Below, piece after piece: positions 38,501 through 55,612 of a stretch of 60,150 nt of DNA. The stretch lies in IMG/VR virus record IMGVR_UViG_3300046385_000041, positions 1-60,150 of that record; one strand, written 5' to 3'. Under the pieces are notes generated by a model. It saw nothing but the letters and a program-made list of their open reading frames with translations. It made no database searches and was not told the origin of the DNA. The position numbers and the translations under genes were made by a program. Every line of letters begins with the position of its first letter. The first letter of the stretch is position 1. The stretch is from a virus (lineage: Duplodnaviria; Caudoviricetes).

Positions 38501-41500
38501 CTTATATTAATAAATATTTGCCAGTAAGAGCTATTGCTACTTCAAAAAGATTACTTGGTAAAGAATTTAGCAAAGATGTTACAGAAGAAAAAGCCTTAAT
38601 GGCTGAAGAAACTGTTCCTGAGGTAAAAGAAAAACAAAAGTATGCAAATGCATTGGAATCAAAAGTTTTTAGCAAAGAAGCTATTGAAACGATTAATAAA
38701 AAGATATTAAGCGTTGTTAGAACTTTGAAATCTAAAATTGATGCACCTGTATCTATAAATAGAACTATTACGCCATTAATTGCTGAAATTAGAGATGAAA
38801 TTGGCAAGCAAGTTGATATTGACGTTAAAACCGCAATGGGTGGTAAAAAAGATAATCAACTTAAAAATTGGTTATTAAAGAATAAGAAATATATTCTTGA
38901 AAATATGACCACAACGTGGTTAATGGGATTAGATGGTAAAGGTGGTATACCACAAGCTATTCAAAAACAAATTGATGGTAAGTGGGTTAATTACCCTGAA
39001 TGGGTCGGAAAGAAAATAGATAGAGAATCCGTTGCAACTGATAGCGCAGGCAGAACTTCCGGAGCCGAACTTGTTAGAAGATTACCTAACGTTGCTAATA
39101 ATATTTCTAATGAAGATTTTTTAAGTAATGTTTTAGAACCATCAGGAAATCCTATAAGAGGTAGAAAAGAATCATTAGCTAAAGCAATAGCTGAAGAAAC
39201 TTCATTTGATATTATATTAAATGATTTTGAAAATGATGGTCCTATTTTTCAGGCATTTGAGACTAATCAAGAAAGACAGGGTGTAGAAGTTAAAGAAGTA
39301 ATAAAAACAGATTTTTTAAGACAGGTTGAAAGGGGTAATATTAAGTTTTCATTAAGCCCAAAAGCTAAAGAAGAATTTAATGATAGCGTTGATGAAATGT
39401 TTGAAGCCATTAGTTTAAAGGGCAGAATAACTAAAGCTAAATTAAGACGCATTGTTAATAATGTTTTTCCTGATTGGACGCAAGACGATAAAGACGAAGT
39501 AACCAATAAATTTGGCACATATATAAGATCTGCGATTCAAACTATAGGAAGAAAATATAGAGAAAAAGAAACGATTAAAGCTGCAAAAGTAAAAGATGCT
39601 ATACGCGCATTTACAGATAGTGTTGATGATGGCGTTGCAATTGGTGTACGCTTAGGCGTTCCGTCTGTAACTGCTAATCTTAAGAATAGCGAGCACATAA
39701 AAGAATTGCAAGATATAAATATTGATTTTGGACAGCAATTATTAAAAGACGTTGGTCAACGCGAAGGTTTAGAATTATTAGCTTCTTTTTGGTATCCTTC
39801 TGTTGCAGGAAGAACTAAAGACGAATCTAAATCTATATTTAAAGGCAAAGGAAGTTTCAGACAATTTTTACAAGATATTCAAGATGGATTTGATAATAAA
39901 ATTAAATTTGAAGATTTGAATATTGATAGAAAAAGTAATGCTGTAACTAAGGAAATGGTTGATGGGAATATTTCTGCAGAAAGTAAAGCTAATGATCTTA
40001 GAGTATCAGGAAATGCATGGGACTTTACTAATAGATCTGTAGAATTTTTTGCTAAAGAAGTAAAAGATCCAAATAATGGATATTCAAACAAGCATTTAGC
40101 TTCATTACTAACGATGCTAATCTATGAAAGAAACTCCGCTTTAAGAAGTGCAGCGCCAGCCACCGGAGTAATCGTAGATCCTAGAATTAAAAATATTAAA
40201 AAATACGATTATGACCACTCTGTTCCTGCTAGATATGTATTGTCTAGGCTAATGGATAAATATGTTGATGGTAAAGATGTTGATTTAAATAAGCTTAAAA
40301 AAGATTATATTGTTACTGTTATACCTTTAACAATGACCGAGTCTTTAAAAAATGCTGGATTACAATCAATGATGCCGTATGACTACAAAGATGGAGATGG
40401 AGCGGATTCTAGATTGCAATATGGGAATAAGGACATTTCTAGAATGATTAAATTTAGTTTATCAACAAAAGCTAATTTAAAATGGGAGAATAATTTAGGA
40501 GTTACTTCCGCCGATTTCAAAGTAGGTAAATATAATTATACTATAAAAACAGCACCTATAAAAAGTTATGGTATTGAAGGCGAACCAGGAATGGATAAAA
40601 CTTTTAAAAAAATAGCTAATAATTTAGAAATACCTTTAACGCAATTAACAAATAATAAAAATTTTAATTGGGTATCATTTGCAGAGGAAAACGGTGGAAA
40701 TGGAATTTTAAATACAGGTAATGCGTTTAAAGTATTCGGAATTGTTACCAACGGGCTTATTGATTATATTGAAAAAAATAATATAGAGGGAATTGCTTTT
40801 AGCGCAGACTCCACAGAACCAAGTCGCGTTAGACTATATAAAACATTAGCTAGCACAATAGGGGCCAAACTAGGGTGGGAGTACACTGCTGTAGATTCAG
40901 AAACCAAAGAAAATGGAATTGTTTTTGTAGTAAATTCTTCTAATTCGGACTCGTTCAAAAATCAATCCGAGATACAACAAGGAAAAATTAAATTTAGCAA
41001 AGCAATATCTCCAACATTTAATAAAATAATAGAAGAGAATAAAGGAATAGAGGATTACAAAAACTTCTCCGACATTGTAGCTAGAAGACGAGGCGCAGGT
41101 AAAAATAAGTTTGATATTTATGTCCCTGCTTCAGCGGCTGACTTTGAATTATTACTTTACAATTTTATGGGTGAGGGCAAAAAAGGTGAAGAACAAAAGA
41201 AATTTTTTACCGAAACATTATTAAAACCTTATGCTAATGGAAATGATTTAATGGATGCTGCAAGGCAATCTATTAAAAAAGAGTATAAACAATTATTAAA
41301 TGAGTTTACAGATGTAGCTAAGATGATTGAAAAAAGAACTCCAGATGGAGACTTTACTTACGATCAAGCAATTCGTGTTGCAATGTGGAATGATGAAGGT
41401 GCTGACATCCCAGGCTTATCACAACGCGACTCTAACAAGCTAACTACACTTGTTAACTCAGATCCAGAATTAAAAGCCTTTAAAGATGCTTTAATTGTAA

Positions 41501-43203
41501 CTGGGCGACAAGGTAGAGGTTGGATAAAACCTGAAGAATATTGGGATGCAAATACAATTATATCTGATTTACATAACTTAACTGAAGGTGAAGGTAGAAA
41601 GAAATTCTTGTCTGAATTTATTGCTAATGCTGAAGATATGTTTGGCAAATTTGAGAATGGTAAATTAGTTGGTCCTAATATAAACAAAGTTGAAGCTGTA
41701 TATGGTACAGATGTCAGAGAAGCTTTAGAAGATGTTTTATACAGAATGATAACTGGTAAAAACAAAAGCTTTGGTAAAGACAAAGAAACTAGTAATTGGG
41801 CTAATTGGGTGTCCGGATCTACAGGGGCGATTATGTTCTTGAATGTAAGATCCGCTGCATTGCAGTTGATTGGAGCAGTTAACTTCTTAAACTTAAGAGA
41901 CAACAATCCTTATGCTGCGGCTAAAGCATTTGCTAATCAAAAGCAATATTGGGAAGATTTTGCTACTATCTGGAATTCAGACAAAATGAAGGAAAGACGT
42001 GGCGGTTTAAAAGAAGATGTTGCTGCTGCTGAAATTGCTAATGCAGCTGCCGGTAGTAAAAACAAAGTTGGTGCTGTATTGTCTTATTTATTAAAAATAG
42101 GTTATACACCAACACAAATGGCTGATAGTTTTGCTATTGCTTCAGGAGGTGCTCCATTCTATAGAAATAGAATAAAGACTTATTTAAAGGATGGTATGAC
42201 CGAACAGGAAGCCGAAGAAGCTGCTTGGGACGACTTTACAAAAGTATCTGATGAGACACAACAATCTGGTGATCCAAGGGACATATCTAAACAGCAAGCT
42301 AGTCCTGCCGGTAGATTATTGTTGACATTCCAGAATACAGCGATGCAACAATCTCGTATTGTTAAAAAAGCGGTGCTTGATCTTAAGAACGGTAGAGGTG
42401 ACGCTAAAACAAACTTTGCTAAGATTGCTTATTATGTTGCAATTCAAAATACAATGTTTGCTGTACTGCAGCAAGGTTTATTTGCGGTTGCATTTGGTGA
42501 TGATGACGAAGACGAAGAGAAACCAGAACAAGAGAAAAAGCTAAATGAAAAATTATTCGATGTAGCTGATGGCGTGATCGATACTGTACTAAGAGGTACC
42601 GGATTTGCTGGCGGAATAGTAGCTACTGTAAAGAACATGGCTAAAAAGTATTTAGACGAAAGGGATAAAAAATTTAAAGCAGACTACGCAAAAGTTGTGC
42701 TTGAAGGTGCTAACCTTTCACCTCCAATTGGGTCTAAACTTAGAAAGCTTTACAGCGGACTTCAACAAACTAAATTTGATAAAGATTTAATTGAAAAAAG
42801 AGGTTGGGATGTAATGCAAGATGGCAGAGTTAAATTAAGCCCTAGCTATGGAGTAACCGGTAAAGTGGTTGAGGCATTTACGAATGTACCAATGGATCGT
42901 TTAGTTACAAAAGTAAATAATGCCTCCGAAGCTTTGAATTCTCAAAATACAACAATGCAGAGAATAATGGTGGGTTTAGGCTGGTCTCCTTATAGTGCTG
43001 GTATTGAAGATTCCGCTGGTGATAAAAAAATCAGAGAAGAAGCTAAAGCTAAAAGGAAAATAGAAGGAGTTGAAAAAGCTAAGGAAACTAGAGAAAGAAC
43101 TAAAGATTCTATTAGACAGCTTCCTGTATCTGAACAGCTAAGACTTAGAAAAGAAATGGCTTTGGATCGAAGAGAGAAAAGGAGAAGAAGAAAAATGGGT
43201 TAA
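35566..43203 (+). CDS. Giant polyvalent virion/ejection protein (zincin HExxH, sigma70 region-2-like, HNH-like domains)
   Basis: 2545 aa, last structural gene; RHELLH; sigma-r2-like segment aa 922-995; repeated IKFS linkers. Confidence 0.7.
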   Translation: MSIYTYNGAEFSEEDVIAKAKEKGMDLDSYINKFGIEKTDAEGPGKKKPVVAKGATVAGTKNTASKSAKPSSVSQDNPFGKVKIFDPLNITKNALDNAQIAKNPSKPVSVKKPSSTIKPYSEYKNEYEENKQKEEEGTFSNYLKESFDSAVSTAVKSIYKTPEYVYNAAASITNPIVEAIGDIVGEDVVPTSADKIMKEYGIRNIPADILAKRIKQSDKIIQEYSAKNGGDPLTAIENGNYLGAAKLIAGGTVQSFPMMAAAMLSGGSTTALAGIAASTAVSKADQLEQENPEMGLGERTINSATSGLLESYLGHLFTGASGAAVSKILEKQGTEIGSKLISNGLVNTLANAIEKNPLIGVLGEVVEEGAVELGNQLNDIKSGIRKELDYRAIANNGIIATGMAGTNTVPIYAAKGYMKSKEYNQLKNVNKEIHSLSSQLSNPYVNKDDKKIISSRIARLADENKAIAGKSLEKIKALPISVKTEINTINSDLDNIKNKYLNIIDNSEIPAEAQKGMIDELSLQAKELHNRKASIIEGNYIYDDFRKLPIAEQDKFKETANNILAKESGQEEGMFKPSKDEIDRKAVEIYNEDLRVKGLAKEVELVQKLIEPGNIGEIVNGIGKNKPVEIFETPEDLQKAYADYMLASGDTEEVRDVTNEIGFMLGNQVVINKKIAETFQEGSTVGRHELLHKILKSSFSDAVEGQKLKDKFLSVLSKKERDVIDKRLEDREYTKKYLDSSPDEYLTQFFEALEAKEIEYGDRSFLNMWKSFMQPIYQKLGFRKLDFKSGSDVYNFVKDYHKSVAKSGLSERAKSLLEKGKTIESDVKSSRAQSEILKQELIKLNENEFEYDPDDFEKQVENLEFKIKREIEKEKSNPKVETVKKEVLTEEDEVKEIIKENRASVASDKVQKIYELKGKEGAQDIINLFKPITKKIVDKRRDAPDFDRELLTDEIETGVGGILDLITKYNPESGIPLAAYINKYLPVRAIATSKRLLGKEFSKDVTEEKALMAEETVPEVKEKQKYANALESKVFSKEAIETINKKILSVVRTLKSKIDAPVSINRTITPLIAEIRDEIGKQVDIDVKTAMGGKKDNQLKNWLLKNKKYILENMTTTWLMGLDGKGGIPQAIQKQIDGKWVNYPEWVGKKIDRESVATDSAGRTSGAELVRRLPNVANNISNEDFLSNVLEPSGNPIRGRKESLAKAIAEETSFDIILNDFENDGPIFQAFETNQERQGVEVKEVIKTDFLRQVERGNIKFSLSPKAKEEFNDSVDEMFEAISLKGRITKAKLRRIVNNVFPDWTQDDKDEVTNKFGTYIRSAIQTIGRKYREKETIKAAKVKDAIRAFTDSVDDGVAIGVRLGVPSVTANLKNSEHIKELQDINIDFGQQLLKDVGQREGLELLASFWYPSVAGRTKDESKSIFKGKGSFRQFLQDIQDGFDNKIKFEDLNIDRKSNAVTKEMVDGNISAESKANDLRVSGNAWDFTNRSVEFFAKEVKDPNNGYSNKHLASLLTMLIYERNSALRSAAPATGVIVDPRIKNIKKYDYDHSVPARYVLSRLMDKYVDGKDVDLNKLKKDYIVTVIPLTMTESLKNAGLQSMMPYDYKDGDGADSRLQYGNKDISRMIKFSLSTKANLKWENNLGVTSADFKVGKYNYTIKTAPIKSYGIEGEPGMDKTFKKIANNLEIPLTQLTNNKNFNWVSFAEENGGNGILNTGNAFKVFGIVTNGLIDYIEKNNIEGIAFSADSTEPSRVRLYKTLASTIGAKLGWEYTAVDSETKENGIVFVVNSSNSDSFKNQSEIQQGKIKFSKAISPTFNKIIEENKGIEDYKNFSDIVARRRGAGKNKFDIYVPASAADFELLLYNFMGEGKKGEEQKKFFTETLLKPYANGNDLMDAARQSIKKEYKQLLNEFTDVAKMIEKRTPDGDFTYDQAIRVAMWNDEGADIPGLSQRDSNKLTTLVNSDPELKAFKDALIVTGRQGRGWIKPEEYWDANTIISDLHNLTEGEGRKKFLSEFIANAEDMFGKFENGKLVGPNINKVEAVYGTDVREALEDVLYRMITGKNKSFGKDKETSNWANWVSGSTGAIMFLNVRSAALQLIGAVNFLNLRDNNPYAAAKAFANQKQYWEDFATIWNSDKMKERRGGLKEDVAAAEIANAAAGSKNKVGAVLSYLLKIGYTPTQMADSFAIASGGAPFYRNRIKTYLKDGMTEQEAEEAAWDDFTKVSDETQQSGDPRDISKQQASPAGRLLLTFQNTAMQQSRIVKKAVLDLKNGRGDAKTNFAKIAYYVAIQNTMFAVLQQGLFAVAFGDDDEDEEKPEQEKKLNEKLFDVADGVIDTVLRGTGFAGGIVATVKNMAKKYLDERDKKFKADYAKVVLEGANLSPPIGSKLRKLYSGLQQTKFDKDLIEKRGWDVMQDGRVKLSPSYGVTGKVVEAFTNVPMDRLVTKVNNASEALNSQNTTMQRIMVGLGWSPYSAGIEDSAGDKKIREEAKAKRKIEGVEKAKETRERTKDSIRQLPVSEQLRLRKEMALDRREKRRRRKMG

Positions 43204-43240: not shown

Positions 43241-43272
43241 AAAAAGGGAAGCTTAACGGCCTCCCTTTTTTT
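43241..43272. terminator. Bidirectional terminator at convergence of the two arms
   Basis: AAAAAGGGAAGC-TTAACG-GCCTCCCTTTTTTT; stem fully paired (one G:U) on the - strand. Confidence 0.8.
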
Positions 43273-43843
43273 ATTTAATCTTATAAAACATTACAAATAC
43301 TTTTCTGCTATTTGTAAACTTATTTGGGTATTTACTGTGAAAGTAATTACATGGATATGATAATGCTCTATTTTGTTTGTGACCTATAACGGATTTTAAA
43401 TTCCATAAGGATTTATCATTAGCATCGGTATTTAATAGCCTATTATATTCCTTTTCATTTATATCTACAAACTTGTCTCCGTGTATTTTATGTTCCCAGA
43501 ACGCGGTACCGTTTAATTCATCCGTATTGTTATCAGATATAAACAATACTAAAGCTCTATCTGGTTGTTGTCCTTCTATGATTGAGTCATTATGTATACG
43601 CCAATCATCATCTTGATTTAATTTTGCCTCACGAAAAAAACCTAATATACATTCTATATTATTGTTTTCTAATTGCTCAACTTTACTAATAATAAGATCC
43701 AAAAATTCTTGACTAGGTATTTTAACCCAGAAAGATTTGCCGGGCATATCAACCTTGGTAAATTCCGCGGTGTCCTTGTTCAACAAATCTATAAGTTCCT
43801 GGTTTAAAAAATCATCTTTAATATATATCATATTATCCATCAC
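43271..43843 (-). CDS. 2OG-Fe(II) oxygenase-like protein (DUF6445-like)
   Basis: WRIHND (HxD), GTAFW, NRAL, YFHS (distal His), SRKVFVMF (2OG Arg). Confidence 0.75.
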   Translation of the reverse strand: MMDNMIYIKDDFLNQELIDLLNKDTAEFTKVDMPGKSFWVKIPSQEFLDLIISKVEQLENNNIECILGFFREAKLNQDDDWRIHNDSIIEGQQPDRALVLFISDNNTDELNGTAFWEHKIHGDKFVDINEKEYNRLLNTDANDKSLWNLKSVIGHKQNRALSYPCNYFHSKYPNKFTNSRKVFVMFYKIK

Positions 43844-45562
43844 CTAGCCATCGCAGCTCAGGCACCCTTCATCCATTGCTTTAGCAGCTAAGTCACCACG
43901 TAAAACAGATTCAGTACGCATATAATACAAAGTTTTAATTCCTTTTTTCCATGCATCCATGTGAACTTTATTAATCCACTTTGGTGTCGCTTCATTTGGA
44001 AAAGCTAAATTTAAACTAACGGATTGATCAATATATTGTTGTCTGATACCTGCTTGATTAACCAATTCTAACTGATTGATCTCTTTAAACGTTTTGAAAA
44101 CATCTTTAGCCGGTATGTCGTGATTAAACATAATATCATCGAGCTCGTCAATATCTTGAACAGAACCTCCATCAGCCAATATTTTTGCCCAAATTTCATC
44201 TGTATTAATTTTATGTTTTTTTAATAGTTTTACTAAGCTTGGATTTTTTCGAATGAAAGTACCTTTTGCACTTTGCTCGGTAAATACGTTAGCAGCCCAT
44301 GGCTCAATACCTGAAGATACGTTCCCACTAAGCTTACTATTGCTGACAGTAGGAGCAATGGCGCGAAGATGGGTATTACGCATACCAGTACCAACGCACC
44401 ATAAAGGTTCGCCATAAACTTCTGCAAGCGCTTTACTGGCTCGTTCGCTTTCAATTTTGAGTTGACTAAAGATTTTCCTTGTTTCATACTGTGCAAGCAA
44501 TCCTTCGAAGGGCAATCCTTTTTCTTGCAGGTATGTGTGCCATCCCAACACTCCAAGTCCAAGAGGCCTTCCCTTACTAGCCGATCTAACCGCATTTTCA
44601 AAGCCTCGTAATCCTTTTGCTCTTTGGATGAATTCTTCCATGACTCCGTCGAGAAACCAGATTGCGTCATAGATGAGGTTTGTGTCTTTCCATTCTTCAT
44701 ATTTTGCTAAATTTAATGATGATAAACAACATACAAAGCTATGTGTTTCATCGGTGTGTAATGTTATTTCACTGCATATATTAGTCATGTGTACTTTTAA
44801 CCCATGAGTTCTATAAGCTTGTGGATTTGATTTGTTTGTGTTTCCTTTAAACAAGACATAAGGTTCACCAGTTGCTTTACGTTTTCTGATAAGGGCACTC
44901 CACTTATCCCTTGCCTCATTATCTCCTTGTTCAAGCTTTCGCATGAATTTATCACCGACAACAACGCATTGATGTAAATTAAGAGATTGTCTGTTGACAT
45001 CGCCTTTTGGTTCTCTAATTTCAAGCCATTCCTTAAAATCTCCGTGTTCAATGTTGATATTAACAGAAGCTGCTCCTCTACGGACTGAGCCTTGGTTAGT
45101 TGCGAGGATAGTTGAGTCATATATTTTGCAGAAAGGTACAACTCCATCTGATGTTCCATTGCCTGTTATTTTAGCGCCAGCGGGTCTTATTTGATTAACT
45201 CCGATACCAACTCCACCGCCATGCTTAGCGAGTAGCATCATCTCTAAATTCTTTTGTCCAATATCTTGAATGCTGTCCGCAACATCAATACCAAAACAAC
45301 TGATTGGTAATCCACGATCCGTTCCTGTGTTTGATAATACAGGTGAAGCTAAACATAACCATCCATTCCAAATATATTCAAAAAACTTATCTGCTAATTC
45401 TGGTTTGTATAATCTTTTAGCAACAGTTGATGCAACGCGCATATAGGCGTCTTTTGGTGTTTCCCAAGGTAATAGATACCCTCCGGCAATTGTCTTCTTA
45501 TATACGTCCGTATTGGCCCAAACAGGGTAATCAACCCCAGGTTGCCATTCATTATTCCACAT
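43844..45562 (-). CDS. nrdA: Ribonucleotide reductase class I alpha subunit (short, no ATP cone)
   Basis: PISCF, TNICSEI, VCCLSSLNL, IAPTVS, KTLYY, C-terminal CLSC. Confidence 0.95.
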   Translation of the reverse strand: MWNNEWQPGVDYPVWANTDVYKKTIAGGYLLPWETPKDAYMRVASTVAKRLYKPELADKFFEYIWNGWLCLASPVLSNTGTDRGLPISCFGIDVADSIQDIGQKNLEMMLLAKHGGGVGIGVNQIRPAGAKITGNGTSDGVVPFCKIYDSTILATNQGSVRRGAASVNINIEHGDFKEWLEIREPKGDVNRQSLNLHQCVVVGDKFMRKLEQGDNEARDKWSALIRKRKATGEPYVLFKGNTNKSNPQAYRTHGLKVHMTNICSEITLHTDETHSFVCCLSSLNLAKYEEWKDTNLIYDAIWFLDGVMEEFIQRAKGLRGFENAVRSASKGRPLGLGVLGWHTYLQEKGLPFEGLLAQYETRKIFSQLKIESERASKALAEVYGEPLWCVGTGMRNTHLRAIAPTVSNSKLSGNVSSGIEPWAANVFTEQSAKGTFIRKNPSLVKLLKKHKINTDEIWAKILADGGSVQDIDELDDIMFNHDIPAKDVFKTFKEINQLELVNQAGIRQQYIDQSVSLNLAFPNEATPKWINKVHMDAWKKGIKTLYYMRTESVLRGDLAAKAMDEGCLSCDG

Positions 45563-45758
45563 TCAAACCTCCTTCTTCTGCTTTTGCTTTTTCTGTCAAC
45601 TCTTTAATAGCTTCTTCGTAACCCGGCATCAATTTAATTGTGCTTAATGTTCCAACTGCTAAATTAGTTAAATGTTGTTGCTCATCCATAACGCCTTGCA
45701 TTACTCTAATCATTGCATCAACTCTGTTTTTCATTTCAATTAATGTTTGTTCTTTCAT
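45552..45758 (-). CDS. Hypothetical protein
   Basis: ORF between nrdB and nrdA. Confidence 0.6.
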   Translation of the reverse strand: MKEQTLIEMKNRVDAMIRVMQGVMDEQQHLTNLAVGTLSTIKLMPGYEEAIKELTEKAKAEEGGLNVE

Positions 45759-45808
45759 TTTATTTAATTTTAATTACCATATATCTTATAATAGCCTGTC
45801 TACTTATA

Positions 45809-46783
45809 TTAATCACCCCAGATGTCTTCAAAATCTTCTCCTTCGTTTGCTTTACTGTAATCAGTAGGTCTAATAGCAAAGAAATCCGTATGTGTTACAC
45901 CGCCTGTTAAGTGATAGAACCAATCTAAATTTGATGCTGCCTCTTTATTAAATGGGAAATAAGATCCCAAATCTAAATAACCAAGCTCAACTAATTTTTC
46001 GTTTGTTCTTTTCTTTATGAACTGTATTAAGTCGTAAGATTTGATACCTTCAATTTCTCCAGCTTCAAACATCTTATCAATATACTTAATCTCTAATTCA
46101 ACCATTGTTTCTGCAGCTGTTATAACATCTTGTCTGCAATTTTCTAATAACGTAGGATCTTCTTCACACATGTGACGGAATAATTGGCATCCCATCTTAC
46201 TGTGCAGTGATTCATCACGTACGCTCCATTTCATTTGTTGCCCGATGCCTTTAAGTAAATTCCTTAATTGAAAAGAATATAATACAGCGAAAGCAGAATA
46301 AAGACTAACCCCTTCAGCGAAAGCGCTAAATACAGCAAGAGAGCGCCCAATATCAACTGTACTCCTACCTTCTGTTGCAACCAGGTTAGCAAACCTTTCA
46401 GCCGTTGCAGGCTCGTGTAAAAAAGCTTTGAAATCATCTAATCCTAATGTTTCATTTAAATAACTATATGCTACAGCGTGAATAGTTTCTTGAGAACCAA
46501 ACAGCATTGCCATTTGTTGTATCTCATGCTTAGGAAACCATTTAACCACACTTTGTGTCCAGTAATCTGATACCGCGCACTCTGTCTGAGCGAAACCTAG
46601 CAGGATATTACCTACTAGATTCTTTTCAGACTCGCTTAGCTTTTCATTCCAGTCTTTCACATCGCCAGACATACTGATCTCTGTATGCAACCAAAATGCT
46701 TGAGCTTGCTTTAACCAACCTTCTGTGTAGTATATAGGGAATTCAAACGGTTTGTACTCAATTCTTTTGTCAAATAATCCCAT
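45809..46783 (-). CDS. nrdB: Ribonucleotide reductase class I beta subunit
   Basis: QETIHAVAY, AEGVSLYSAF, RDESLH, C-terminal DFF...Y. Confidence 0.95.
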   Translation of the reverse strand: MGLFDKRIEYKPFEFPIYYTEGWLKQAQAFWLHTEISMSGDVKDWNEKLSESEKNLVGNILLGFAQTECAVSDYWTQSVVKWFPKHEIQQMAMLFGSQETIHAVAYSYLNETLGLDDFKAFLHEPATAERFANLVATEGRSTVDIGRSLAVFSAFAEGVSLYSAFAVLYSFQLRNLLKGIGQQMKWSVRDESLHSKMGCQLFRHMCEEDPTLLENCRQDVITAAETMVELEIKYIDKMFEAGEIEGIKSYDLIQFIKKRTNEKLVELGYLDLGSYFPFNKEAASNLDWFYHLTGGVTHTDFFAIRPTDYSKANEGEDFEDIWGD

Positions 46784-47151: not shown

Positions 47152-47748
47152 TTATAACTTATTATATTTAAGTTTTTCTATAGCTACTTTGCGATTTGAT
47201 TTTCTTTTATTTGTATATGATAAATCTATAATGCCATTTAGCCGTTTTATAGTGCTTTTACAAATACCAGTAGACCGATTGCATTCCGCTATAGAGCAAT
47301 ATTCAATTCCTTCCCAAACAACTTTTTTCCTAGCGGGTTGGGATATTTTGTTTTGCAATATAGAATTTTTAGTATGTTTCATACCGACTCTTTTTTTATG
47401 CCCATTTTGAGGCATATTTTTACCTTTATTAGGATGATGTTTGCCATACATTGGATTTTTAGAACCAACTCTGTTATAAGGTTTATTAATACAATTACCG
47501 CCACCTTCGCATACATTGGTTAAATTTTTTAATCCTATTAAATCTATTAAAATTTCCTCGATAGTATAAGCTTGTTCCTCTGATAGATTATCAATTAATT
47601 TAATAACTTCCCAATTTGGATATTTATTTATAGTATTATTCCAATGGAGATTCCTATGGGCTTTAGAATATGCTCTTTTTCCGCACCCTTTGCCTATATA
47701 AAAAATCCCGTTTTCATTAACATGCATGTATATATAATATTTACCCAT
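47152..47748 (-). CDS. Free-standing GIY-YIG homing endonuclease with NUMOD-type DNA-binding motifs
   Basis: YYIY...FYIGKG...R, conserved E and N; NPMYGKHH and GMKHT NUMOD3-like motifs. Confidence 0.85.
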   Translation of the reverse strand: MGKYYIYMHVNENGIFYIGKGCGKRAYSKAHRNLHWNNTINKYPNWEVIKLIDNLSEEQAYTIEEILIDLIGLKNLTNVCEGGGNCINKPYNRVGSKNPMYGKHHPNKGKNMPQNGHKKRVGMKHTKNSILQNKISQPARKKVVWEGIEYCSIAECNRSTGICKSTIKRLNGIIDLSYTNKRKSNRKVAIEKLKYNKL

Positions 47749-47785: not shown

Positions 47786-48253
47786 TCACTCGTTTGTACT
47801 ACCTTTTACTTTATTAATATAATTTTTTATTATACGAATTGCTTCATCACACTCTACTTGCGACTGCGGTTTTAATAATAATCTACCAGGGTCATTCTTA
47901 CGTACCCAATCTTTAAATAATTTATATCTTAACGGAAAACTTTCATTAGCCCTTCCTTTTGTTTCGCAAGTCCACCCATCACCTTCAAAGTCTGGCGTAT
48001 ATTTAATGCCTAATATTTTTTTATTCCCTCTATCTATAAACTCTCCTTTTCCGTTAGATTGCCTTTCAATAGAACTACTATTGAACAGGAATGTGTCTAA
48101 CAATTGATATGTTTTGCCTTCGTATTTAAAATCAATACCAGCATCTTTCAATGCCTTGTACATATACTTTTCAAGTCCGGAAGCAAAGGTTATGCCGTCA
48201 TACATAACCTTTTTTGCTACTACCGGCCCTTTCTTTCTGCTAATTTTCTTCAT
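47786..48253 (-). CDS. T7 endonuclease I-like resolvase
   Basis: FASGLE, YTPDF, ETKG motifs. Confidence 0.8.
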   Translation of the reverse strand: MKKISRKKGPVVAKKVMYDGITFASGLEKYMYKALKDAGIDFKYEGKTYQLLDTFLFNSSSIERQSNGKGEFIDRGNKKILGIKYTPDFEGDGWTCETKGRANESFPLRYKLFKDWVRKNDPGRLLLKPQSQVECDEAIRIIKNYINKVKGSTNE

Positions 48254-48545
48254 CTATTGTATATGAGAAACCATTAGCCTCCGTCCATTTTTCAGCGTCT
48301 TTAACATCTATTTTTAAAAGCTCTAATTCTTCTTTTATATTAGTAACTTCTTCTTTAAGACGTTGAACATATAAGACGGCATCCATTAATTCTTCTTGGA
48401 AATGATTAAGCCAAGTGTGCATATCTGATTTGTCATCGCGTAATGTTTTACCATACTTTGCAAATCCAACATCCGATCTTGATACAAATTTGTCTACTAC
48501 ATTTTCAACAACCGGATCTCTAAATATTATTTCTTTCTTTGTCAT
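48240..48545 (-). CDS. All-alpha NTP pyrophosphohydrolase-like protein
   Basis: RSxxGxxKYG...WLNHFQEELMDAVLY. Confidence 0.6.
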   Translation of the reverse strand: MTKKEIIFRDPVVENVVDKFVSRSDVGFAKYGKTLRDDKSDMHTWLNHFQEELMDAVLYVQRLKEEVTNIKEELELLKIDVKDAEKWTEANGFSYTIDEEN

Positions 48546-49462
48546 TACAATGTACTATTAAATGTGTTTGTTGTGCTGCCTTTTGCTGTATTAGTTAGCC
48601 CAGTGTAATAAGCATGTCTAGCCTGAGTAACATTATTTTTAACAAACGTACCATTTTGCATCGATCCTTTTCTATTCTTAATTTCATCATAAGCTGCATC
48701 AATACACTCCTCAACTTTAAACCCTAATAGATATGCTAAGTTAGTTAATACAACAATTGAATCACCAATACCATCTTTTTGTTCTTCTTTATTGCCATTA
48801 AGAATAGCTTTAGATAATTCACCAACTTCCTCAATAAGCTTTACAAATTGTGTTTTAGGATCGCCACTGGCATATATGCCTCTTTCTTGCGCCCAAGACC
48901 TAATTTCTTTAAATCTATTAGTTTTTTTGCTAGTTTTTTCTTTAAATTCAATTTGTTGTTTTGGTAAAGTAGCAATTAATCTATTGTCTACCGTTGCATT
49001 TGTTGGCAATAATTTTAAGTATTCACTTAATGCTTTATTATAAACGTACGATCTATTAGGATTGTACATCGATGTTCTTACATTTGTCATGATCCAATCT
49101 ACAATAGTAGGAGTCAATTTAAAATTTCCATAAGGAGAAGTAATTATTTCCCCAATGTTGTCCATAAGCTGCCCTTTTAATTTACTTACAGGGCATGCAA
49201 ATGTAATTGTTTGTTCTGTTACGTTTGTTTCCATTTTATTTAATTTAAGTTTATTCATTAATTCTTTATAGGAATGCAAGTCTATCTTATAGCCGTAGAG
49301 TAATTGAAGCTCTGCCTCCTTTGCTGATATATAATCTATATCTTCGCTAGAGTCCAGAACTTCGTATTCGGATGGCTGGTACCCTTGTTGTACCGTAATT
49401 CTATTATTAAGATTACGTGTAACTCCTATCTTTTTCCCTAATATATGGTAAATATAAAACAT
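48545..49462 (-). CDS. GIY-YIG-like N-terminus fused to MazG-like NTP pyrophosphohydrolase
   Basis: FYIYHI..KKIGVT...R N-terminus; KLIEEVGEL...DGIGD...IKNRKG C-terminus; ATG at 49462 preferred. Confidence 0.75.
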   Translation of the reverse strand: MFYIYHILGKKIGVTRNLNNRITVQQGYQPSEYEVLDSSEDIDYISAKEAELQLLYGYKIDLHSYKELMNKLKLNKMETNVTEQTITFACPVSKLKGQLMDNIGEIITSPYGNFKLTPTIVDWIMTNVRTSMYNPNRSYVYNKALSEYLKLLPTNATVDNRLIATLPKQQIEFKEKTSKKTNRFKEIRSWAQERGIYASGDPKTQFVKLIEEVGELSKAILNGNKEEQKDGIGDSIVVLTNLAYLLGFKVEECIDAAYDEIKNRKGSMQNGTFVKNNVTQARHAYYTGLTNTAKGSTTNTFNSTL

Positions 49463-49472: not shown

Positions 49473-50240
49473 TTACACTGCAACTGCAGCAGTTATTTTT
49501 GGCCCGTGTTGATAATTTTTTATTTCCAACTTTCCATCTTTATAAGTATACTCTGGAGATAAGAATGTTTCTTGTTCTAAATACTGTTTTACAGTATTAA
49601 TTTGATTCTTATAAATGTGGGCATCAATTATTTGCATTTCAAGTCTAGATGCTTTATATCCTGTTTGTTCTGCAATATATAATTGTATTTGAGCAAACAA
49701 AGCAACATCATAAGGTATACCTAATAACACATCTCCCGATCTTTGAACAACAAACATATTCAATTCATCACCTTCAACAAAGAATTGAAAATATAAATAA
49801 CAAGGTGGCAATGCCATCTCTTCAAGTTGTAATGGATTCCATAAACTAATAATGTGTCTTCTGCTGTCTGGAGTCGTTTTAAGGTTGTTTATAAGGATCG
49901 CAAGTTGATCATAATATTCACCATTGAAATTCCTTAATTGATGCCCATAAACAGGCCCTAAATCTCCATTCTCATCTGCCCAAGCATCCCAAATTTTAAT
50001 GCCATTATCTTGAAACCTTTTTATATTTGTTTCGCCGTTAATAAACCAATCAAACTCTGTCTTAAATGTTTTTTCAAACATCTTTCTACCGGTTAATAAA
50101 GGAAAACCCTCTTTAAGATCTATCTTCAAACTTTCATTGAATAATGAATAAGATCCAACACCTGTTCTGTCGTTTCTGAAATGACCCATACTTAATATAT
50201 CTTTTAATATATTTCTGTATTGGTATTCATAACTACTCAT
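49473..50240 (-). CDS. thyA: Thymidylate synthase-family enzyme with dCMP-type active site (possible dCMP methylase)
   Basis: DRTGVG, GFPLLT, LGPVYG, SRR, PPC, QRSGD, DAHIY; PYD instead of PFN and PCY instead of PCH; ATG at 50240 preferred. Confidence 0.9.
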   Translation of the reverse strand: MSSYEYQYRNILKDILSMGHFRNDRTGVGSYSLFNESLKIDLKEGFPLLTGRKMFEKTFKTEFDWFINGETNIKRFQDNGIKIWDAWADENGDLGPVYGHQLRNFNGEYYDQLAILINNLKTTPDSRRHIISLWNPLQLEEMALPPCYLYFQFFVEGDELNMFVVQRSGDVLLGIPYDVALFAQIQLYIAEQTGYKASRLEMQIIDAHIYKNQINTVKQYLEQETFLSPEYTYKDGKLEIKNYQHGPKITAAVAV

Positions 50241-50499
50241 TCTTTTTGTACTTTTCATAATAATATAGATAATATTTAAACATTTGATTCCATAAAGTAG
50301 TTTTAGTATGTACATCTGGGCTTCTATTCTTTTTGCCGTTTATAGTAATATCTAAATACCACTTAGTTGTGCTTTCAGCAAATGGCGCTATAAAGATATT
50401 ATTTCTAACGCACCACATCATTGCTTCTTGCTCTTTAGCACTTTGTATATAGTTACCCATATCAATTTGCCCTTTCCTAACTTTAGTTCCACTACCCAT
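50233..50499 (-). CDS. Hypothetical protein
   Basis: Operon spacing. Confidence 0.6.
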   Translation of the reverse strand: MGSGTKVRKGQIDMGNYIQSAKEQEAMMWCVRNNIFIAPFAESTTKWYLDITINGKKNRSPDVHTKTTLWNQMFKYYLYYYEKYKKNE

Positions 50500-52215
50500 T
50501 TATTCCCACGGCAACTTTTCGCCTGATACATCTAATGGAACGTGAGGTATAAAGCATCCTGAGTTTGGTTCCCATTTGAAATGGGCTTCAGCACCATTCT
50601 CACCAAGATTTTGAAACTTAACTTTTAATACTTTACATTTAACAGTTTTGTTTTCATAATCTCTATGGACTAATAATCCGTGATAAGATGCATCGTACCA
50701 TTCTCCACCACCTTTAATGTTATACATTGTAGGCTCTTCAATCTTACCATCAGAACCTTTATACATTTTAGTAGGATGCGCAACAATAAATACTAATACA
50801 TCGTACTTTTTAGCAAAGATTTCAATCTTCTGTAAGTATTCCATTGTATACTTATTGACATCTTCTGTTTTAGCATCAACATCTCTTACTTTATTGAATG
50901 GATCTATAACTAAGCATTTAATACCTTTACGCTTAACTAATTCAGCACCTTTACGCAATACAGATTCTAAAGTGTAGCGTTCCATATCGATGTGAAAGAA
51001 ATTAGCATTGCAATGATCCGCTATTTGGTTCCAACGATCACCACCAATATCATCTTGTGACGGCATACCTTCCCAAACTTTACGCATTAATTTGTGCGCG
51101 TGTAAGTAAGCTGGTGTATTTTCAGGAGATGCGAATGCGGTTTTCCATCCGTAGTTTCGATTATAGCCCACAACCATCTGGTCGACAAAATCACTTTTAC
51201 CGGAAGACGGAATACCAGTGACAGTAATGAATTGGCCAGTATAAGTTGAAAAGATTTCATCAAAATTAGGAAGGCCAACTTGAAATCCCGGTTTAAAACC
51301 GTTACGAACAAAGTCAGTAACTTCATTTTCGAGATCTCTAAATGTGACAACGTTCTCAAGTGGTACAGGCTTTGCTCTTGAAATTCTTTGTGATAGTCTT
51401 TCCTTTCCATACTTTAATAAATATTCATTTGCATCTTTACAGTCTTCAAATGTAGCTAAGTAACATATTTCAGATCCTAATCTTCTGACTAATTCAACTT
51501 GCAATGCTTGACCTGCTTCGTCTGAATCAACCGCTATAATTATTTTTGATTTGTCTTCGAAATAATCAATGCAACTATCTAAGTAGTCAAGATTATTATT
51601 ATTAAGAGTAGCCCCGTTAGGAACAGATATTGCATTTGTTATTCCTGCTTCGTGCAGCGCGAGCACATCCATTTCGCCTTCAACAATAACACAATACTCG
51701 TAGCCCACAATACTATTAATATTGTAGAAAACTTTTTCAGCGCCTTTATATAGTTTAAAATTCTTTCTACCATCTCTATACTTAACATTTATAAGTTGAT
51801 CTCCTATAAAGTAATTAAACCTTATTACGTTTTCAACCTTACTCGTTTGTGGCATGAATTCTGAGCCCTCGGTAACCTTAAGTTCTGTTAATGTGTCTTT
51901 TGAAATTCCTCTTGTTTTGAACCATTCTTCAACTTTTGAACTGACTTCGTGTATAGCAACCGGTTCAGGTTTCTCATATACTTTTTCAGATTTACCTTTA
52001 CGTTGGTAAGTGTGTAGTTGAAATGTTTTATTACAATTGTGGCAGGTTCCGATACCACGTTGCCAATCATAGCTAGCGCATTTGGCTTTTTCATTCTTTG
52101 GTTTTCTATCGGGCGAACATATAGGGCATATACCACTAGTTTTCCCCTCGTCAACCTTATGTACATTAAATGTGTCTATTAAAAACCCGTTAATTTCAAC
52201 TGTCTCTACATTCAT
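50500..52215 (-). CDS. Primase-helicase (T7 gp4/Twinkle-like)
   Basis: CPIC...CHNC Zn finger, TOPRIM EGEMD/DSD/KDANE, Walker A GIPSSGKS, VIDP, VAHP. Confidence 0.93.
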   Translation of the reverse strand: MNVETVEINGFLIDTFNVHKVDEGKTSGICPICSPDRKPKNEKAKCASYDWQRGIGTCHNCNKTFQLHTYQRKGKSEKVYEKPEPVAIHEVSSKVEEWFKTRGISKDTLTELKVTEGSEFMPQTSKVENVIRFNYFIGDQLINVKYRDGRKNFKLYKGAEKVFYNINSIVGYEYCVIVEGEMDVLALHEAGITNAISVPNGATLNNNNLDYLDSCIDYFEDKSKIIIAVDSDEAGQALQVELVRRLGSEICYLATFEDCKDANEYLLKYGKERLSQRISRAKPVPLENVVTFRDLENEVTDFVRNGFKPGFQVGLPNFDEIFSTYTGQFITVTGIPSSGKSDFVDQMVVGYNRNYGWKTAFASPENTPAYLHAHKLMRKVWEGMPSQDDIGGDRWNQIADHCNANFFHIDMERYTLESVLRKGAELVKRKGIKCLVIDPFNKVRDVDAKTEDVNKYTMEYLQKIEIFAKKYDVLVFIVAHPTKMYKGSDGKIEEPTMYNIKGGGEWYDASYHGLLVHRDYENKTVKCKVLKVKFQNLGENGAEAHFKWEPNSGCFIPHVPLDVSGEKLPWE

Positions 52216-52698: not shown

Positions 52699-53058
52699 TT
52701 AAAGTTTTAATTGTTTATTATTAGTTAAATATTCTACTGCTTTTAATACACCTTCTAAATTATCACCTAAAAATCCAATGCCTGAATTACAAGACATGCA
52801 TAATATGCCTCTTATTTTATTTGTTTCATGGCAATGATCAATATATGTAGATCTTTTATCAAGTGTTTCTTTACCGCAACAATGACAATTATTACTATCC
52901 ATTAATGATTGAGCTTGATCCAAAGTTATTTTATAATTTCTAGCTCTAGAATATAAACATTCACACGTTTTACATCTTGATTTTAATCCGCCAGTATCTG
53001 GCCTATTATAAAAATCGGTTAATGGTAATTTTAATTTGCAATATGTGCAGGTTTTCAT
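52699..53058 (-). CDS. Endonuclease VII-like HNH nuclease
   Basis: CxxC pairs; IDHCH...RGILCxxCNxGIG. Confidence 0.85.
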   Translation of the reverse strand: MKTCTYCKLKLPLTDFYNRPDTGGLKSRCKTCECLYSRARNYKITLDQAQSLMDSNNCHCCGKETLDKRSTYIDHCHETNKIRGILCMSCNSGIGFLGDNLEGVLKAVEYLTNNKQLKL

Positions 53059-54844: not shown

Positions 54845-55612
54845 TCAAAGATAATCAATAACTTGATTCGCATCTACATTATCAACTAATTTTTTTATTG
54901 CTTGCTTTTTAATCTCTGATATTCTAACATAAGCGCTAGCTCCATCTATATTTAATATTTCAGCGATCTCATTAGCTGAATGTTTATCGCAGTCTAAACC
55001 ATAACTTAATCTTAATACCTCGAACTCTTTGTCATCTAAATGTTTCTTAAGTAAGCTAGTTAAGTAAGCATTCATTAAACCTATATTGTATACCTCTGAT
55101 TGATCTGGTATTTGATACAACATATTCTCTTCATCGTCATCATCAATTTGTTCATCGATGCTTAAAAATATTGAATTAAAAAACATTGCAACTAATGTAT
55201 GGTCCTTGCTGTTATCTTTTCTTATTTCATTTAGCTTATGCTCTGGGATCTTAATTGAGCCTCTGTTAATATCTATAGCTCTTCTAATTGATCCTTTAAT
55301 TCTTTTAGATAGAAACGACTTAAGCGTACTTTCTTTATGCTCACTTTGATTTACTGTGTCCCATTCTATTTTGTCAACAGCTTGTATTAAACCTATTGAA
55401 CCATATTGAATTAAATCTGTTATATCAAGTACCCCTGACGCCTGCTGGCTAGTGGAAAACTTTCTTGCAATATTTTCAACAAATGGTAAGAACTTAATAA
55501 TTAACTCGTCTCGTGAACAACTAGCAGAAAACTCTTGTTCCGGAAATCTTTCTATCGAAGTATCTCGATCTTCTTTATACCTCAAATAATTATCTATATT
55601 ATAACTTTTCAT
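54845..55612 (-). CDS. Phage sigma70-family factor (probable late sigma)
   Basis: Region 2 LPFVENIARKF...DLIQYGSIGLIQAVDK; region 4 VLRLSYGL...EIAEIL...RISEIKKQAIKKL. Confidence 0.9.
   Translation of the reverse strand: MKSYNIDNYLRYKEDRDTSIERFPEQEFSASCSRDELIIKFLPFVENIARKFSTSQQASGVLDITDLIQYGSIGLIQAVDKIEWDTVNQSEHKESTLKSFLSKRIKGSIRRAIDINRGSIKIPEHKLNEIRKDNSKDHTLVAMFFNSIFLSIDEQIDDDDEENMLYQIPDQSEVYNIGLMNAYLTSLLKKHLDDKEFEVLRLSYGLDCDKHSANEIAEILNIDGASAYVRISEIKKQAIKKLVDNVDANQVIDYL

What the first reader, a model, noticed from the sequence alone, without database searches (positions are those of the whole stretch)
49473..50240. ThyA homolog with a dCMP-specific active site: candidate natural dCMP methylase / 5mC genome
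Seen: QRSGDVLLGIPYDVALF aligns to E. coli QRSCDVFLGLPFNIASY, so Asn177 is Asp (codon 49707-49709). LPPCY replaces the usual PCH, so His147 is Tyr (49797-49799). The catalytic Cys, Arg and Glu residues and the LGPVYG Tyr are intact. Established: this Asn/Asp position determines dUMP versus dCMP specificity. T4 dCMP hydroxymethylase has Asp there, and engineered TS Asn->Asp mutants methylate dCMP, more so when the His is also changed. Inference: the enzyme makes 5-methyl-dCMP (or hm-dCMP), either for restriction-resistant DNA or as a deamination route to dTMP. An automatic annotation would likely just call it thyA.
Basis: partly seen in the sequence, partly recalled or inferred. Interest (0 to 1): 0.8.

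Follow-up and report, generated by a model that had tools for sequence, protein, structure and literature searches.

The report
Phage ThyA-like predicted dCMP methylase
This phage gene looks like an ordinary thymidylate synthase but carries the published active-site signature of enzymes that methylate dCMP, so the phage probably builds 5-methylcytosine into its DNA, a strategy already known from other phages.

Summary
Window 49473-50240 (minus strand) encodes a 255-aa thymidylate-synthase-family protein. It has Asp (GAT, 49707-49709) where E. coli ThyA has Asn177, and Tyr (TAT, 49797-49799) where it has His147. All other catalytic residues are kept. It also keeps Leu143, Asp169 and the ThyA C-terminal tail. 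By published residue rules this predicts 5-methyl-dCMP, not 5-hydroxymethyl- or 5-hydroxy-dCMP.

The signature is selected. All 120 listed homologues (64-100% identical) and all 81 DNA copies keep it, with synonymous codon changes. A MazG-type pyrophosphatase gene, the candidate dCTPase, lies just downstream in 80 of 80 related loci.

The carrier is a 94%-complete freshwater podophage related to Flavobacterium and Cellulophaga phages. Nineteen long relatives each have one TS gene. None has a dCMP deaminase, a family A or B DNA polymerase, or a thymidylate-kinase-type kinase.

The kind is known: phage Xp12, and metavirome Asp177 homologues shown to make 5mdC. This is a separate, ThyA-proper lineage, only 25% identical to the Xp12 enzyme. 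No activity or DNA-modification data exist for it.

The scan has flagged the same signature in other genomes. Verdict: a new member of a known kind, of modest interest.

The parts
49473..50240 (-). ThyA-family enzyme, 255 aa (stop codon included). Predicted dCMP C5-methylase (5-methyl-dCMP synthase).
   Evidence: PF00303 E 3.4e-79. 37% identical to E. coli ThyA over the full length. Signature L143/Y147/D169/D177.
49707..49709 (-). Asp codon (GAT) at the position of E. coli Asn177, the pyrimidine-specificity residue.
   Evidence: Asp in 81 of 81 DNA copies (GAT 65, GAC 16).
49797..49799 (-). Tyr codon (TAT) at the position of E. coli His147, directly after the catalytic Cys codon at 49800-49802.
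   Evidence: Tyr in 81 of 81 copies.
48545..49462 (-). Three-part protein of 305 aa: an N-terminal GIY-YIG-like part, a conserved middle part of unknown fold, and a C-terminal MazG-type NTP pyrophosphatase domain. Candidate dCTPase that supplies dCMP and depletes dCTP.
   Evidence: PF03819 MazG E 4.5e-5. phrog_1992 and phrog_715 MazG-like, E 4e-36 and 5e-30. AlphaFold model: residues about 176-265 match MazG/PRA-PH structures with Z 8-10. A homologue starts within 60 nt of the TS end in 78 of 80 loci and within 648 nt in all 80. Substrate not shown.
48240..48545 (-). Conserved 101-aa ORF after the MazG gene. Function unknown.
   Evidence: Present in 65 of 80 loci. Matches only PHROGs of unknown function. 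hhalign against the MazG family gives probability 0.3%. Atlas hits are all hypothetical proteins.
50233..50499 (-). 88-aa ORF whose stop overlaps the TS start. Function unknown.
   Evidence: Homologue upstream of TS in 48 of 80 loci, many of which are cut at that side. No Pfam or PHROG match.
43844..46783 (-). Ribonucleotide reductase large subunit (43844-45562) and small subunit (45809-46783), which supply deoxynucleotides.
   Evidence: PF02867 E 1.4e-93 and PF00268 E 1e-55. Present in 12 of 80 related loci.
50500..52215 (-). Primase-helicase (Toprim plus DnaB-like), the only replication enzyme with a Walker A motif in the window.
   Evidence: Nearest cultured relative is Cellulophaga phage phi10:1, 44% identity.

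Best explanation
The gene encodes a thymidylate-synthase-fold enzyme that has switched substrate from dUMP to dCMP and still transfers a methyl group. It takes dCMP and 5,10-methylene-tetrahydrofolate and gives 5-methyl-dCMP and dihydrofolate.

Proposed pathway:
1. The MazG-type pyrophosphatase encoded just downstream cleaves dCTP to dCMP. This feeds the methylase and lowers the dCTP pool.
2. The methylase makes 5-methyl-dCMP.
3. Kinases, probably the host's, raise it to 5-methyl-dCTP.
4. The replisome incorporates it. The replisome is the phage primase-helicase with a polymerase that is not family A or B, so probably the host's.
5. The virion DNA then carries 5-methylcytosine in place of much or all cytosine, which blunts restriction.
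6. dTMP would come from the host, because the phage has no second TS and no deaminase.

Shown here: family membership, the residue signature and its strict conservation, and the gene linkage to MazG.
Inferred: the substrate, the product, the MazG substrate, the kinase and polymerase steps, and the modified DNA.
For: (1) Residue signature, numbered on E. coli ThyA: N177D, H147Y, L143 kept, D169 kept, C-terminal tail kept.

(2) Published rules (NAR 2026, PMC13326640, passages read): Asp177 gives dCMP preference. A bulky hydrophobic 143 goes with methyl products and Asp/Glu with hydroxymethyl products. D169N marks 5-hydroxy-dCMP synthases. My alignment reproduces these rules for T4 gp42 (D143, D177) and RB69 gp48 (E143, N169, D177).

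(3) Positions 177 and 147 were the two positions most associated with cytosine-modified metavirome contigs (eLife 2021). In my own sample of 150 representatives, His147 is kept in 109 of 112 Asn177 proteins but in only 9 of 36 Asp177 proteins.

(4) Natural Asp177 homologues make 5mdC in vivo: Xp12, and 5 of 7 metavirome enzymes tested (bioRxiv 2024.12.05.627091).

(5) Selection: 120 of 120 homologues and 81 of 81 DNA copies keep Asp and Tyr through synonymous change.

(6) Linkage: a MazG-type gene lies downstream in 80 of 80 loci. All-alpha NTP pyrophosphatase domains (PRA-PH) are among the top co-occurring domains of such TS genes in modified contigs.

(7) The protein lies in a clade of 37 tips (support 0.951), of which 35 have Asp177.

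(8) The nearest deposited relatives of the phage lack any TS gene, so the module is an add-on rather than core metabolism.
Against: - No enzyme of this Tyr147/Asp177 lineage is known to me to have been assayed. It is only 25% identical to the verified Xp12 enzyme and falls outside its clade.
- No kinase for 5-methyl-dCMP was found. No Walker A motif occurs outside the primase-helicase, apart from an unconvincing match in the 101-aa ORF. PF02223 is in 0 of 19 records.
- The published in vivo assays co-expressed a phage dNMP kinase. From memory, Xp12 induces its own 5-methyl-dCMP kinase.
- No family A or B polymerase is present (0 of 19), so incorporation would rest on host enzymes.
- Two Asn177 sequences are nested in the Asp177 clade, so the switch is labile.
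- Some C-containing palindromes remain under-represented: CATG at O/E 0.46, GGATCC 2 seen against 13.1 expected, GATATC 2 against 13.7. This would be unexpected if every C were protected, though many enzymes still cut 5mC DNA.
- The MazG substrate is unknown. Mammalian dCTPase of the same fold binds 5-methyl-dC nucleotides (PDB titles).
- No read data able to show modification were available.
Confidence: 0.62

Rival explanations
1. The enzyme makes 5-methyl-dCMP, but this does not end up in DNA. A host dCMP deaminase turns it into dTMP, so the MazG-TS pair is a dCTP-to-dTTP shunt for an AT-rich genome (about 34% G+C).
For: No kinase for 5-methyl-dCMP was found. Deamination of 5-methyl-dC nucleotides to thymidine nucleotides is the role proposed for the Xp12-type deaminases. 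The window is AT-rich. Some C-containing palindromes are still avoided.
Against: The ordinary dCMP to dUMP to dTMP route gives the same result with an Asn177 enzyme, so there would be no reason to fix Asp177 and Tyr147 in 120 of 120 homologues. No phage deaminase is present in 0 of 19 records. In metaviromes Asp177 goes with modified DNA.
Confidence: 0.12
2. Despite Asp177 it is still a working thymidylate synthase on dUMP, or it uses both dUMP and dCMP.
For: Every other ThyA residue, including the C-terminal tail, is kept, and identity to E. coli ThyA is 37%. It is the only TS gene in each of 19 records. TIGR03284 scores above its cut-off. Two Asn177 proteins sit inside the clade.
Against: [quoted passage not shown] Four NCBIfam ThyA equivalogs score below their cut-offs, for example 265.9 against 327. 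The coupled loss of His147 is typical of Asp177 enzymes.
Confidence: 0.12
3. It is a dCMP hydroxymethylase like T4 gp42 and the DNA carries 5-hydroxymethylcytosine, perhaps further decorated.
For: Asp177 is shared with T4 gp42. A 2OG-Fe(II)-oxygenase-fold gene is present in the window.
Against: Leu143 is kept rather than Asp/Glu, and the C-terminal tail and W80/W83 are kept. Identity to gp42 is 23%. No glycosyl-, carbamoyl- or other transferase was found among 40 ORFs scanned with Pfam. The oxygenase-like gene is in only 4 of 19 related records and matches small-molecule and prolyl hydroxylases, not TET/JBP.
Confidence: 0.08
4. It is a 5-hydroxy-dCMP synthase like RB69 gp48.
For: Asp177 is shared.
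Against: The diagnostic D169N change is absent, since Asp169 is kept in 120 of 120 homologues. Leu143 is kept rather than Glu. No sugar-nucleotide or glycosyltransferase genes were found.
Confidence: 0.02

Closest known systems
Xanthomonas phage Xp12 thymidylate synthase homologue (dCMP methylase; MT664984, QNN97214.1)
   Same: TS fold. Asp at 177 and His147 replaced. The G-[LI]-P-Y-D-V motif is shared. Reported to make 5mdC, and the phage DNA is fully 5mC.
   Different: Only 25% identical and outside the window protein's clade. Xp12 has Pro147 and Asn143, and its C-terminus does not align with ThyA's. Its neighbours are a dCMP deaminase, a DHFR-like gene and a HAD hydrolase. Here the neighbour is MazG and there is no deaminase.
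Metavirome (MetaGPA) Asp177 thymidylate synthase homologues
   Same: Asp177 and a changed 147 are associated with cytosine-modified contigs. They co-occur with all-alpha NTP pyrophosphatase domains. Five of 7 tested made 5mdC.
   Different: Those tested were chosen for a neighbouring dCMP-deaminase gene, which this clade lacks. I could not see whether any tested enzyme has Tyr147, because the figures and supplements were not available.
Engineered E. coli ThyA N177D / L. casei TS N229D
   Same: A ThyA-proper scaffold with the single specificity change. The window protein is such a scaffold by descent (37% identical to E. coli ThyA).
   Different: The natural protein also has H147Y, F176Y and C168G and is kept by selection. 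The primary papers were not read, only cited passages.
T4 gp42 dCMP hydroxymethylase
   Same: Same superfamily, Asp at 177 and dCMP as substrate.
   Different: 23% identity. gp42 has Asp143 and its C-terminus does not align with ThyA's. The window protein keeps Leu143 and the tail.
Uncultured Mediterranean phage uvMED S28-C10 thyA (AP013540, BAQ94086.1)
   Same: The same L143/Y147/D169/D177 signature and about 41% identity.
   Different: It is an Autographiviridae genome. The gene sits between a dTMP-kinase-like gene and a dCMP deaminase, with an NTP pyrophosphohydrolase and DNA polymerase I nearby. That is the full set of companions, which this clade lacks.
E. coli ThyA (canonical thymidylate synthase)
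   Same: 37% identity end to end. 9 of the 12 residues within 6 A of C5 listed are identical.
   Different: N177D, H147Y and C168G among those 12, plus F176Y beside them.

Membership tests
Thymidylate synthase / pyrimidine hydroxymethylase superfamily (Pfam PF00303) | Profile match above the curated cut-off over the whole domain | tested here: met
   266.2 bits against 24.3, profile positions 2-266 of 266.
Thymidylate synthase / pyrimidine hydroxymethylase superfamily (Pfam PF00303) | Catalytic Cys146 and the phosphate/deoxyribose-binding residues (R21, R126, R127, R166, H207, Y209), plus E58 and Y94 | tested here: met
   All are identical to E. coli ThyA in the MAFFT alignment.
Canonical ThyA, dUMP to dTMP | Asn at position 177, which hydrogen-bonds to uracil | tested here: not met
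   Asp.
Canonical ThyA, dUMP to dTMP | His at position 147 | tested here: not met
   Tyr. His is present in 109 of 112 Asn177 representatives.
Canonical ThyA, dUMP to dTMP | NCBIfam equivalog scores above cut-off | tested here: inconclusive
   TIGR03284 scores 225.6 against 108.35 (above). NF002497 scores 265.9 against 327, and NF002496, NF002499 and NF002495 are also below.
Canonical ThyA, dUMP to dTMP | dUMP methylation and thyA complementation | not testable with these tools
   Needs an enzyme assay or genetics.
dCMP C5-methylase (5-methyl-dCMP synthase; function of the Xp12 and MetaGPA homologues) | Asp at position 177 | tested here: met
dCMP C5-methylase (5-methyl-dCMP synthase; function of the Xp12 and MetaGPA homologues) | No acidic residue at 143, and Asp169 kept, so neither the hydroxymethylase nor the hydroxylase signature | tested here: met
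   Leu143 and Asp169. Rules.
dCMP C5-methylase (5-methyl-dCMP synthase; function of the Xp12 and MetaGPA homologues) | Common descent with the verified Xp12 enzyme (same sequence clade) | tested here: not met
   25% identity. Xp12 falls outside the 37-tip clade and outside the ThyA-proper group in the FastTree. Function may be shared by convergence.
dCMP C5-methylase (5-methyl-dCMP synthase; function of the Xp12 and MetaGPA homologues) | Makes 5-methyl-dCMP from dCMP and methylene-THF | not testable with these tools
   Needs an assay.
dCMP C5-methylase (5-methyl-dCMP synthase; function of the Xp12 and MetaGPA homologues) | 5-methylcytosine in virion DNA | not testable with these tools
   All 24 runs found are kept as assembled contigs, which cannot show base modification.
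dCMP hydroxymethylase (T4 gp42 type) | Acidic residue (Asp/Glu) at position 143 | tested here: not met
   Leu here. T4 gp42 shows Asp in the same alignment.
dCMP hydroxymethylase (T4 gp42 type) | A companion transferase acting on the hydroxymethyl group (frequent, not obligatory) | tested here: not met
   None among 40 ORFs scanned with Pfam. About 20 short ORFs under 160 aa were not scanned.
5-hydroxy-dCMP synthase (RB69 gp48 type) | Asn at position 169 (D169N) | tested here: not met
   Asp169 here. RB69 gp48 shows Asn in the same alignment.

The most novel reading that the evidence does not exclude
A large clade of freshwater Bacteroidota podophages replaces cytosine by 5-methylcytosine with a minimal module: a MazG-type dCTPase and a dCMP methylase derived independently from ThyA proper. 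It would do so without any phage DNA polymerase, dNMP kinase or deaminase, so a host replisome and host kinases would write an all-5mC genome. This would be an independent origin of dCMP methylation from the Xp12 lineage, and the first 5mC-substituted phages of this host phylum.
Probability: 0.3. Interest if true: 0.55.

Novelty: new member of a known kind. Interest (0 to 1): 0.3.

Why it matters
If the prediction holds, automatic annotation hides a widespread group of lake phages with 5mC-substituted DNA behind the name "thymidylate synthase".

- Such DNA changes how restriction, CRISPR and modification-dependent defences see the phage.
- It also affects how the DNA behaves in methylation-aware sequencing of metagenomes.
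- The clade would show how little phage machinery is needed for base substitution: one enzyme and one pyrophosphatase, with host kinases and polymerase.
- The enzymes are candidate ThyA-scaffold dCMP methylases for biotechnology.

The principle, the diagnostic residues and working examples are already published. The gain is in distribution and pathway economy, not a new mechanism.

Tried and rejected
**Neighbourhoods by exact protein look-up.** I used the search for related loci and the genome search instead.

**Direct evidence of modification.** The one run search gave 24 runs, all kept as contigs and mostly freshwater metagenomes.
- Laying X2, X16, X20 and X21 showed only that the phage is present without differences in a second DNA run.
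- Contigs of 90-99%-identical relatives in RNA libraries cover the gene. This does not prove transcription and says nothing on modification.

**Palindrome avoidance as a proxy for protected DNA.** CATG has O/E 0.46, GGCC 0.62, GGATCC is seen 2 times against 13.1 expected, and GATATC 2 against 13.7. GATC and GCGC are near 1. This is inconclusive either way.

**TET-like oxidation of 5mC.**
- The ORF at 43271-43843 has an HxD...H...R pattern and a weak DUF6445 match.
- Its model (pLDDT 89.8) matches HygX, proline hydroxylases and FtmOx1, with E about 2e-6 to 2e-5 and TM 0.5-0.6.
- It occurs in only 4 of 19 related records.
- I rejected it as part of the module. No TET/JBP entry was among the rows shown.

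**A second NTP pyrophosphatase.** The 101-aa ORF shows no profile similarity to the MazG family (hhalign probability 0.3%), no Pfam match, and only hypothetical proteins in the Atlas.

**A hidden kinase in the MazG protein.** Foldseek and VIA-align matched only the C-terminal MazG domain. Pfam gives only weak GIY-YIG-related hits there (MUG113 E 0.036, T5orf172 E 0.056).

**A cultured relative carrying the module.** The best tblastn identity in 50,697 phage records is 42%.
- Of four top records read, three are ordinary L/H/D/N enzymes. One, uvMED S28-C10, has the L/Y/D/D signature.
- The nearest records by terminase, MW202828 and a Flavobacterium elemovirus, have no TS gene.

**Cellular genomes.** Only 4 loci in 185,579 species' genomes encode close relatives. 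All are in MAG contigs: 3 labelled Bacteroidia or Bacteroidetes and 1 Opitutales. This is at best a weak host hint, and I did not check their residues.

**Literature.** Four searches were run.
- The 1990s mutagenesis papers and the Weigele and Raleigh review are not in the library. I cite them only through passages.
- Supplementary files and figures of the eLife, bioRxiv and NAR papers could not be seen. They may show whether a Tyr147 enzyme was already assayed.
- Polymerase families other than A and B, and kinase families other than PF02223, were not searched.
Full report
**What is there.** The window is a whole IMG/VR virus record of 60,150 bases, estimated 94% complete. On the minus strand, 49473-50240 encodes a 255-aa protein. 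It matches Pfam Thymidylat_synt end to end (E 3.4e-79) and PHROG 160 thymidylate synthase (E 7.7e-87). It is 37% identical to E. coli K-12 ThyA over its whole length, including the C-terminal tail (AAVAV against APVAI).

Alignments to solved thymidylate synthases, to E. coli ThyA, and a 275-sequence MAFFT alignment agree on the substitutions. The residue at E. coli Asn177 is Asp (GAT, 49707-49709) and the residue at His147 is Tyr (TAT, 49797-49799). R21, E58, W80, W83, Y94, R126, R127, L143, C146, Q165, R166, S167, D169, G173, H207 and Y209 are unchanged. F176 is Tyr and C168 is Gly.

**Is it more than chance?** The 120 best homologues listed by the metagenome protein search are 64-100% identical, and JGI names them "thymidylate synthase" where a name exists. 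All 120 have Leu143, Tyr147, Asp169 and Asp177, while only 74 of 255 columns are invariant.

At the DNA level, the window and 80 IMG/VR loci have an Asp codon in 81 of 81 copies (GAT 65, GAC 16) and a Tyr codon in 81 of 81. Asn is a single transition away. A second DNA run holds the stretch without differences. A co-occurring strain changes bases on both sides of the Asp codon, but none of the listed changes falls in it.

**What the residues mean, from papers read in passages.**
- eLife 2021 (PMC8670742) aligned 433 metavirome TS homologues. Positions 177 and 147 were the two most associated with cytosine-modified contigs: Asn in unmodified contigs and Asp in modified ones.
- bioRxiv 10.1101/2024.12.05.627091 reports that the Xp12 homologue and 5 of 7 metavirome homologues predicted from Asp177 produced 5mdC in E. 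coli when co-expressed with T4 dNMP kinase.
- NAR 2026 (PMC13326640) gives the finer rules. Asp177 gives dCMP preference. A bulky hydrophobic residue at 143 goes with methyl products and Asp/Glu with hydroxymethyl products. D169N marks 5-hydroxy-dCMP synthases.

My alignment reproduces these rules on the reference enzymes. T4 gp42 reads D143/T147/D169/D177 and RB69 gp48 reads E143/T147/N169/D177. The window protein reads L/Y/D/D, so the predicted product is 5-methyl-dCMP. One caveat applies: the verified Xp12 methylase aligns with Asn, not a hydrophobic residue, at 143. The 143 rule is therefore a correlation.

**Where it sits in the family.** In the 50%-clustered library, 15,290 proteins match at E up to 0.001. 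Of the best 150, 112 have Asn177 and 36 have Asp177. His147 is kept in 109 of 112 of the former and in 9 of 36 of the latter.

I built a FastTree from 167 sequences. These were 14 of the 120 near homologues, the 150 representatives, the query and 4 references, with 2 short rows dropped. The window protein lies in a 37-tip clade (support 0.951) nested in ThyA proper. Of those tips, 35 have Asp177 and 2 have His147/Asn177.

The Xp12 enzyme lies outside that clade and is 25% identical. T4 gp42 is 23% identical. So this is a separate lineage from the classical dCMP methylase. It is best described as a natural counterpart of the engineered N177D enzymes. An uncultured marine Autographiviridae genome (AP013540) carries the same L/Y/D/D signature, beside an NTP pyrophosphohydrolase, a dTMP-kinase-like gene, a dCMP deaminase and DNA polymerase I.

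**Gene context.** Downstream on the same strand lie, in order:
- a 305-aa protein whose C-terminal part is a MazG-type NTP pyrophosphatase (model and structure matches with Z 8-10 to MazG and PRA-PH). It also has a conserved GIY-YIG-like N-terminus (weak Pfam hits; invariant Y5, G13, R21, E49) and a middle part of unknown fold;
- a conserved 101-aa ORF of unknown function;
- a resolvase-like gene, a GIY-YIG homing-endonuclease-like gene and both ribonucleotide reductase subunits.

Upstream lie an 88-aa ORF that overlaps the TS start and a primase-helicase.

A MazG homologue follows the TS gene in 80 of 80 related loci, within 60 nt in 78 of them. In 75 of 80 it has the long three-part form, and in 5 of 80 it is the MazG domain alone. 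This is the pairing expected for a dCTPase that feeds and protects a dCMP-modifying pathway, as with T4 gp56 and gp42. Its substrate is not shown.

**What the phage lacks.** I searched 19 long records of the clade, the window included. Seventeen are at least 90% complete and 4 have terminal repeats.
- There is exactly one TS-family gene per record.
- None has a PF00383 or PF14437 deaminase.
- None has a family A or B DNA polymerase.
- None has a PF02223 kinase.
- In the window, the only convincing Walker A motif is in the primase-helicase.

Phosphorylation of 5-methyl-dCMP, its incorporation and the dTMP supply would therefore depend on the host or on unrecognised genes. This is the weakest link of the pathway and the main evidence against full substitution. 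It also rules out a phage-encoded deamination route to dTMP.

**The phage.**
- Structural genes include homologues of the crAss-type muzzle protein, and a terminase and portal.
- The terminase is 64% identical to a spring-water podovirus genome and 45% identical to Flavobacterium elemoviruses. Neither record has a TS gene.
- The primase-helicase is nearest to Cellulophaga, Riemerella, Tenacibaculum and Flavobacterium phages.
- The runs that hold the sequence are labelled freshwater metagenomes, apart from one crustacean metagenome.
- Close TS relatives in cellular assemblies are confined to 4 MAG contigs, 3 of them labelled Bacteroidia or Bacteroidetes.

A Bacteroidota host is therefore likely but not shown.

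**Verdict.** The dCMP-specific signature is real, selected and linked to a candidate dCTPase, and 5-methyl-dCMP is the product predicted by the published rules.

Natural dCMP methylases and the diagnostic value of positions 177 and 147 are already in print. No activity or DNA-modification evidence exists for this lineage. Notes of this scan flag the same signature in at least six other genomes, and one follow-up reached the same verdict.

I rate it a new member of a known kind. I give 0.62 confidence that it makes 5-methyl-dCMP that ends up as 5mC in virion DNA. The interest is modest. What is new is the lineage (ThyA proper, Tyr147), its abundance in lake phages, and the sparse pathway without a phage polymerase, kinase or deaminase.

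Noticed in passing
window 43271-43843 (-): A 190-aa ORF at the end of the nucleotide-metabolism operon with an HxD...H...R pattern. It has a weak DUF6445 match. Its confident model (pLDDT 89.8) matches 2OG-Fe(II) oxygenases such as HygX and proline hydroxylases. At least 723 homologues exist in metagenomes, but it is in only 4 of 19 records of this phage clade. Substrate unknown.
   Followed up: partly
window, whole record; G001-G018: No family A or B DNA polymerase in 19 of 19 long records of the clade, although each has a primase-helicase, an Erf annealing protein and an exonuclease. Either the host polymerase is used or a polymerase of an unrecognised kind is present.
   Followed up: partly
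window 11666-13210 (+) and 16309-16917 (+): A phage-encoded Cpn60/GroEL-family chaperonin (E 1.9e-53) and a 202-aa GroES-like protein (phrog_13932) lie upstream of the terminase.
   Followed up: no
window 27488-30718, 31247-32716 and 35566-43203 (+): Two proteins match the crAss-virus muzzle protein families (E 7e-12 and 1e-10). A 2545-aa ORF follows that has no Pfam match at all.
   Followed up: no
window 47152-47748 (-) and 52699-53058 (-): A LEM-3-like GIY-YIG endonuclease gene is present in only 2 of 80 related loci, and an endonuclease VII gene in 15 of 80. Both look like mobile or accessory insertions in the replication module.
   Followed up: no
window 48564-49003: Contigs of a co-occurring strain in a DNA run and in an RNA-library run skip 306-329 bases inside the middle part of the MazG-fusion gene. 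That part therefore varies in length between strains. This agrees with the 241-309-aa range seen in related loci.
   Followed up: partly
window 59869-60018 (-): Two tRNA genes, tRNA-Ile (anticodon AAT) and tRNA-Met (CAT). The tRNA-Met region is 88% identical to a tRNA-Met of Bacteroides phages DAC19-23.
   Followed up: no
window, whole: CATG is strongly under-represented (77 seen against 166 expected). GGATCC and GATATC are also rare (2 against 13-14 expected), while GATC is at expectation.
   Followed up: partly
L087 (AP013540.1 29394-36125): An uncultured marine Autographiviridae genome has a TS with the same L/Y/D/D signature. It lies in a block of NTP pyrophosphohydrolase, dTMP-kinase-like gene, TS, dCMP deaminase, primase-helicase and DNA polymerase I. 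This is a fuller version of the predicted 5mC pathway.
   Followed up: partly
window 54845-55612 (-): A 255-aa ORF with weak sigma-70 region 2 and region 4 matches (E 1.8e-5 and 2e-4), conserved in 33 of 80 loci. It may be a phage sigma factor.
   Followed up: no
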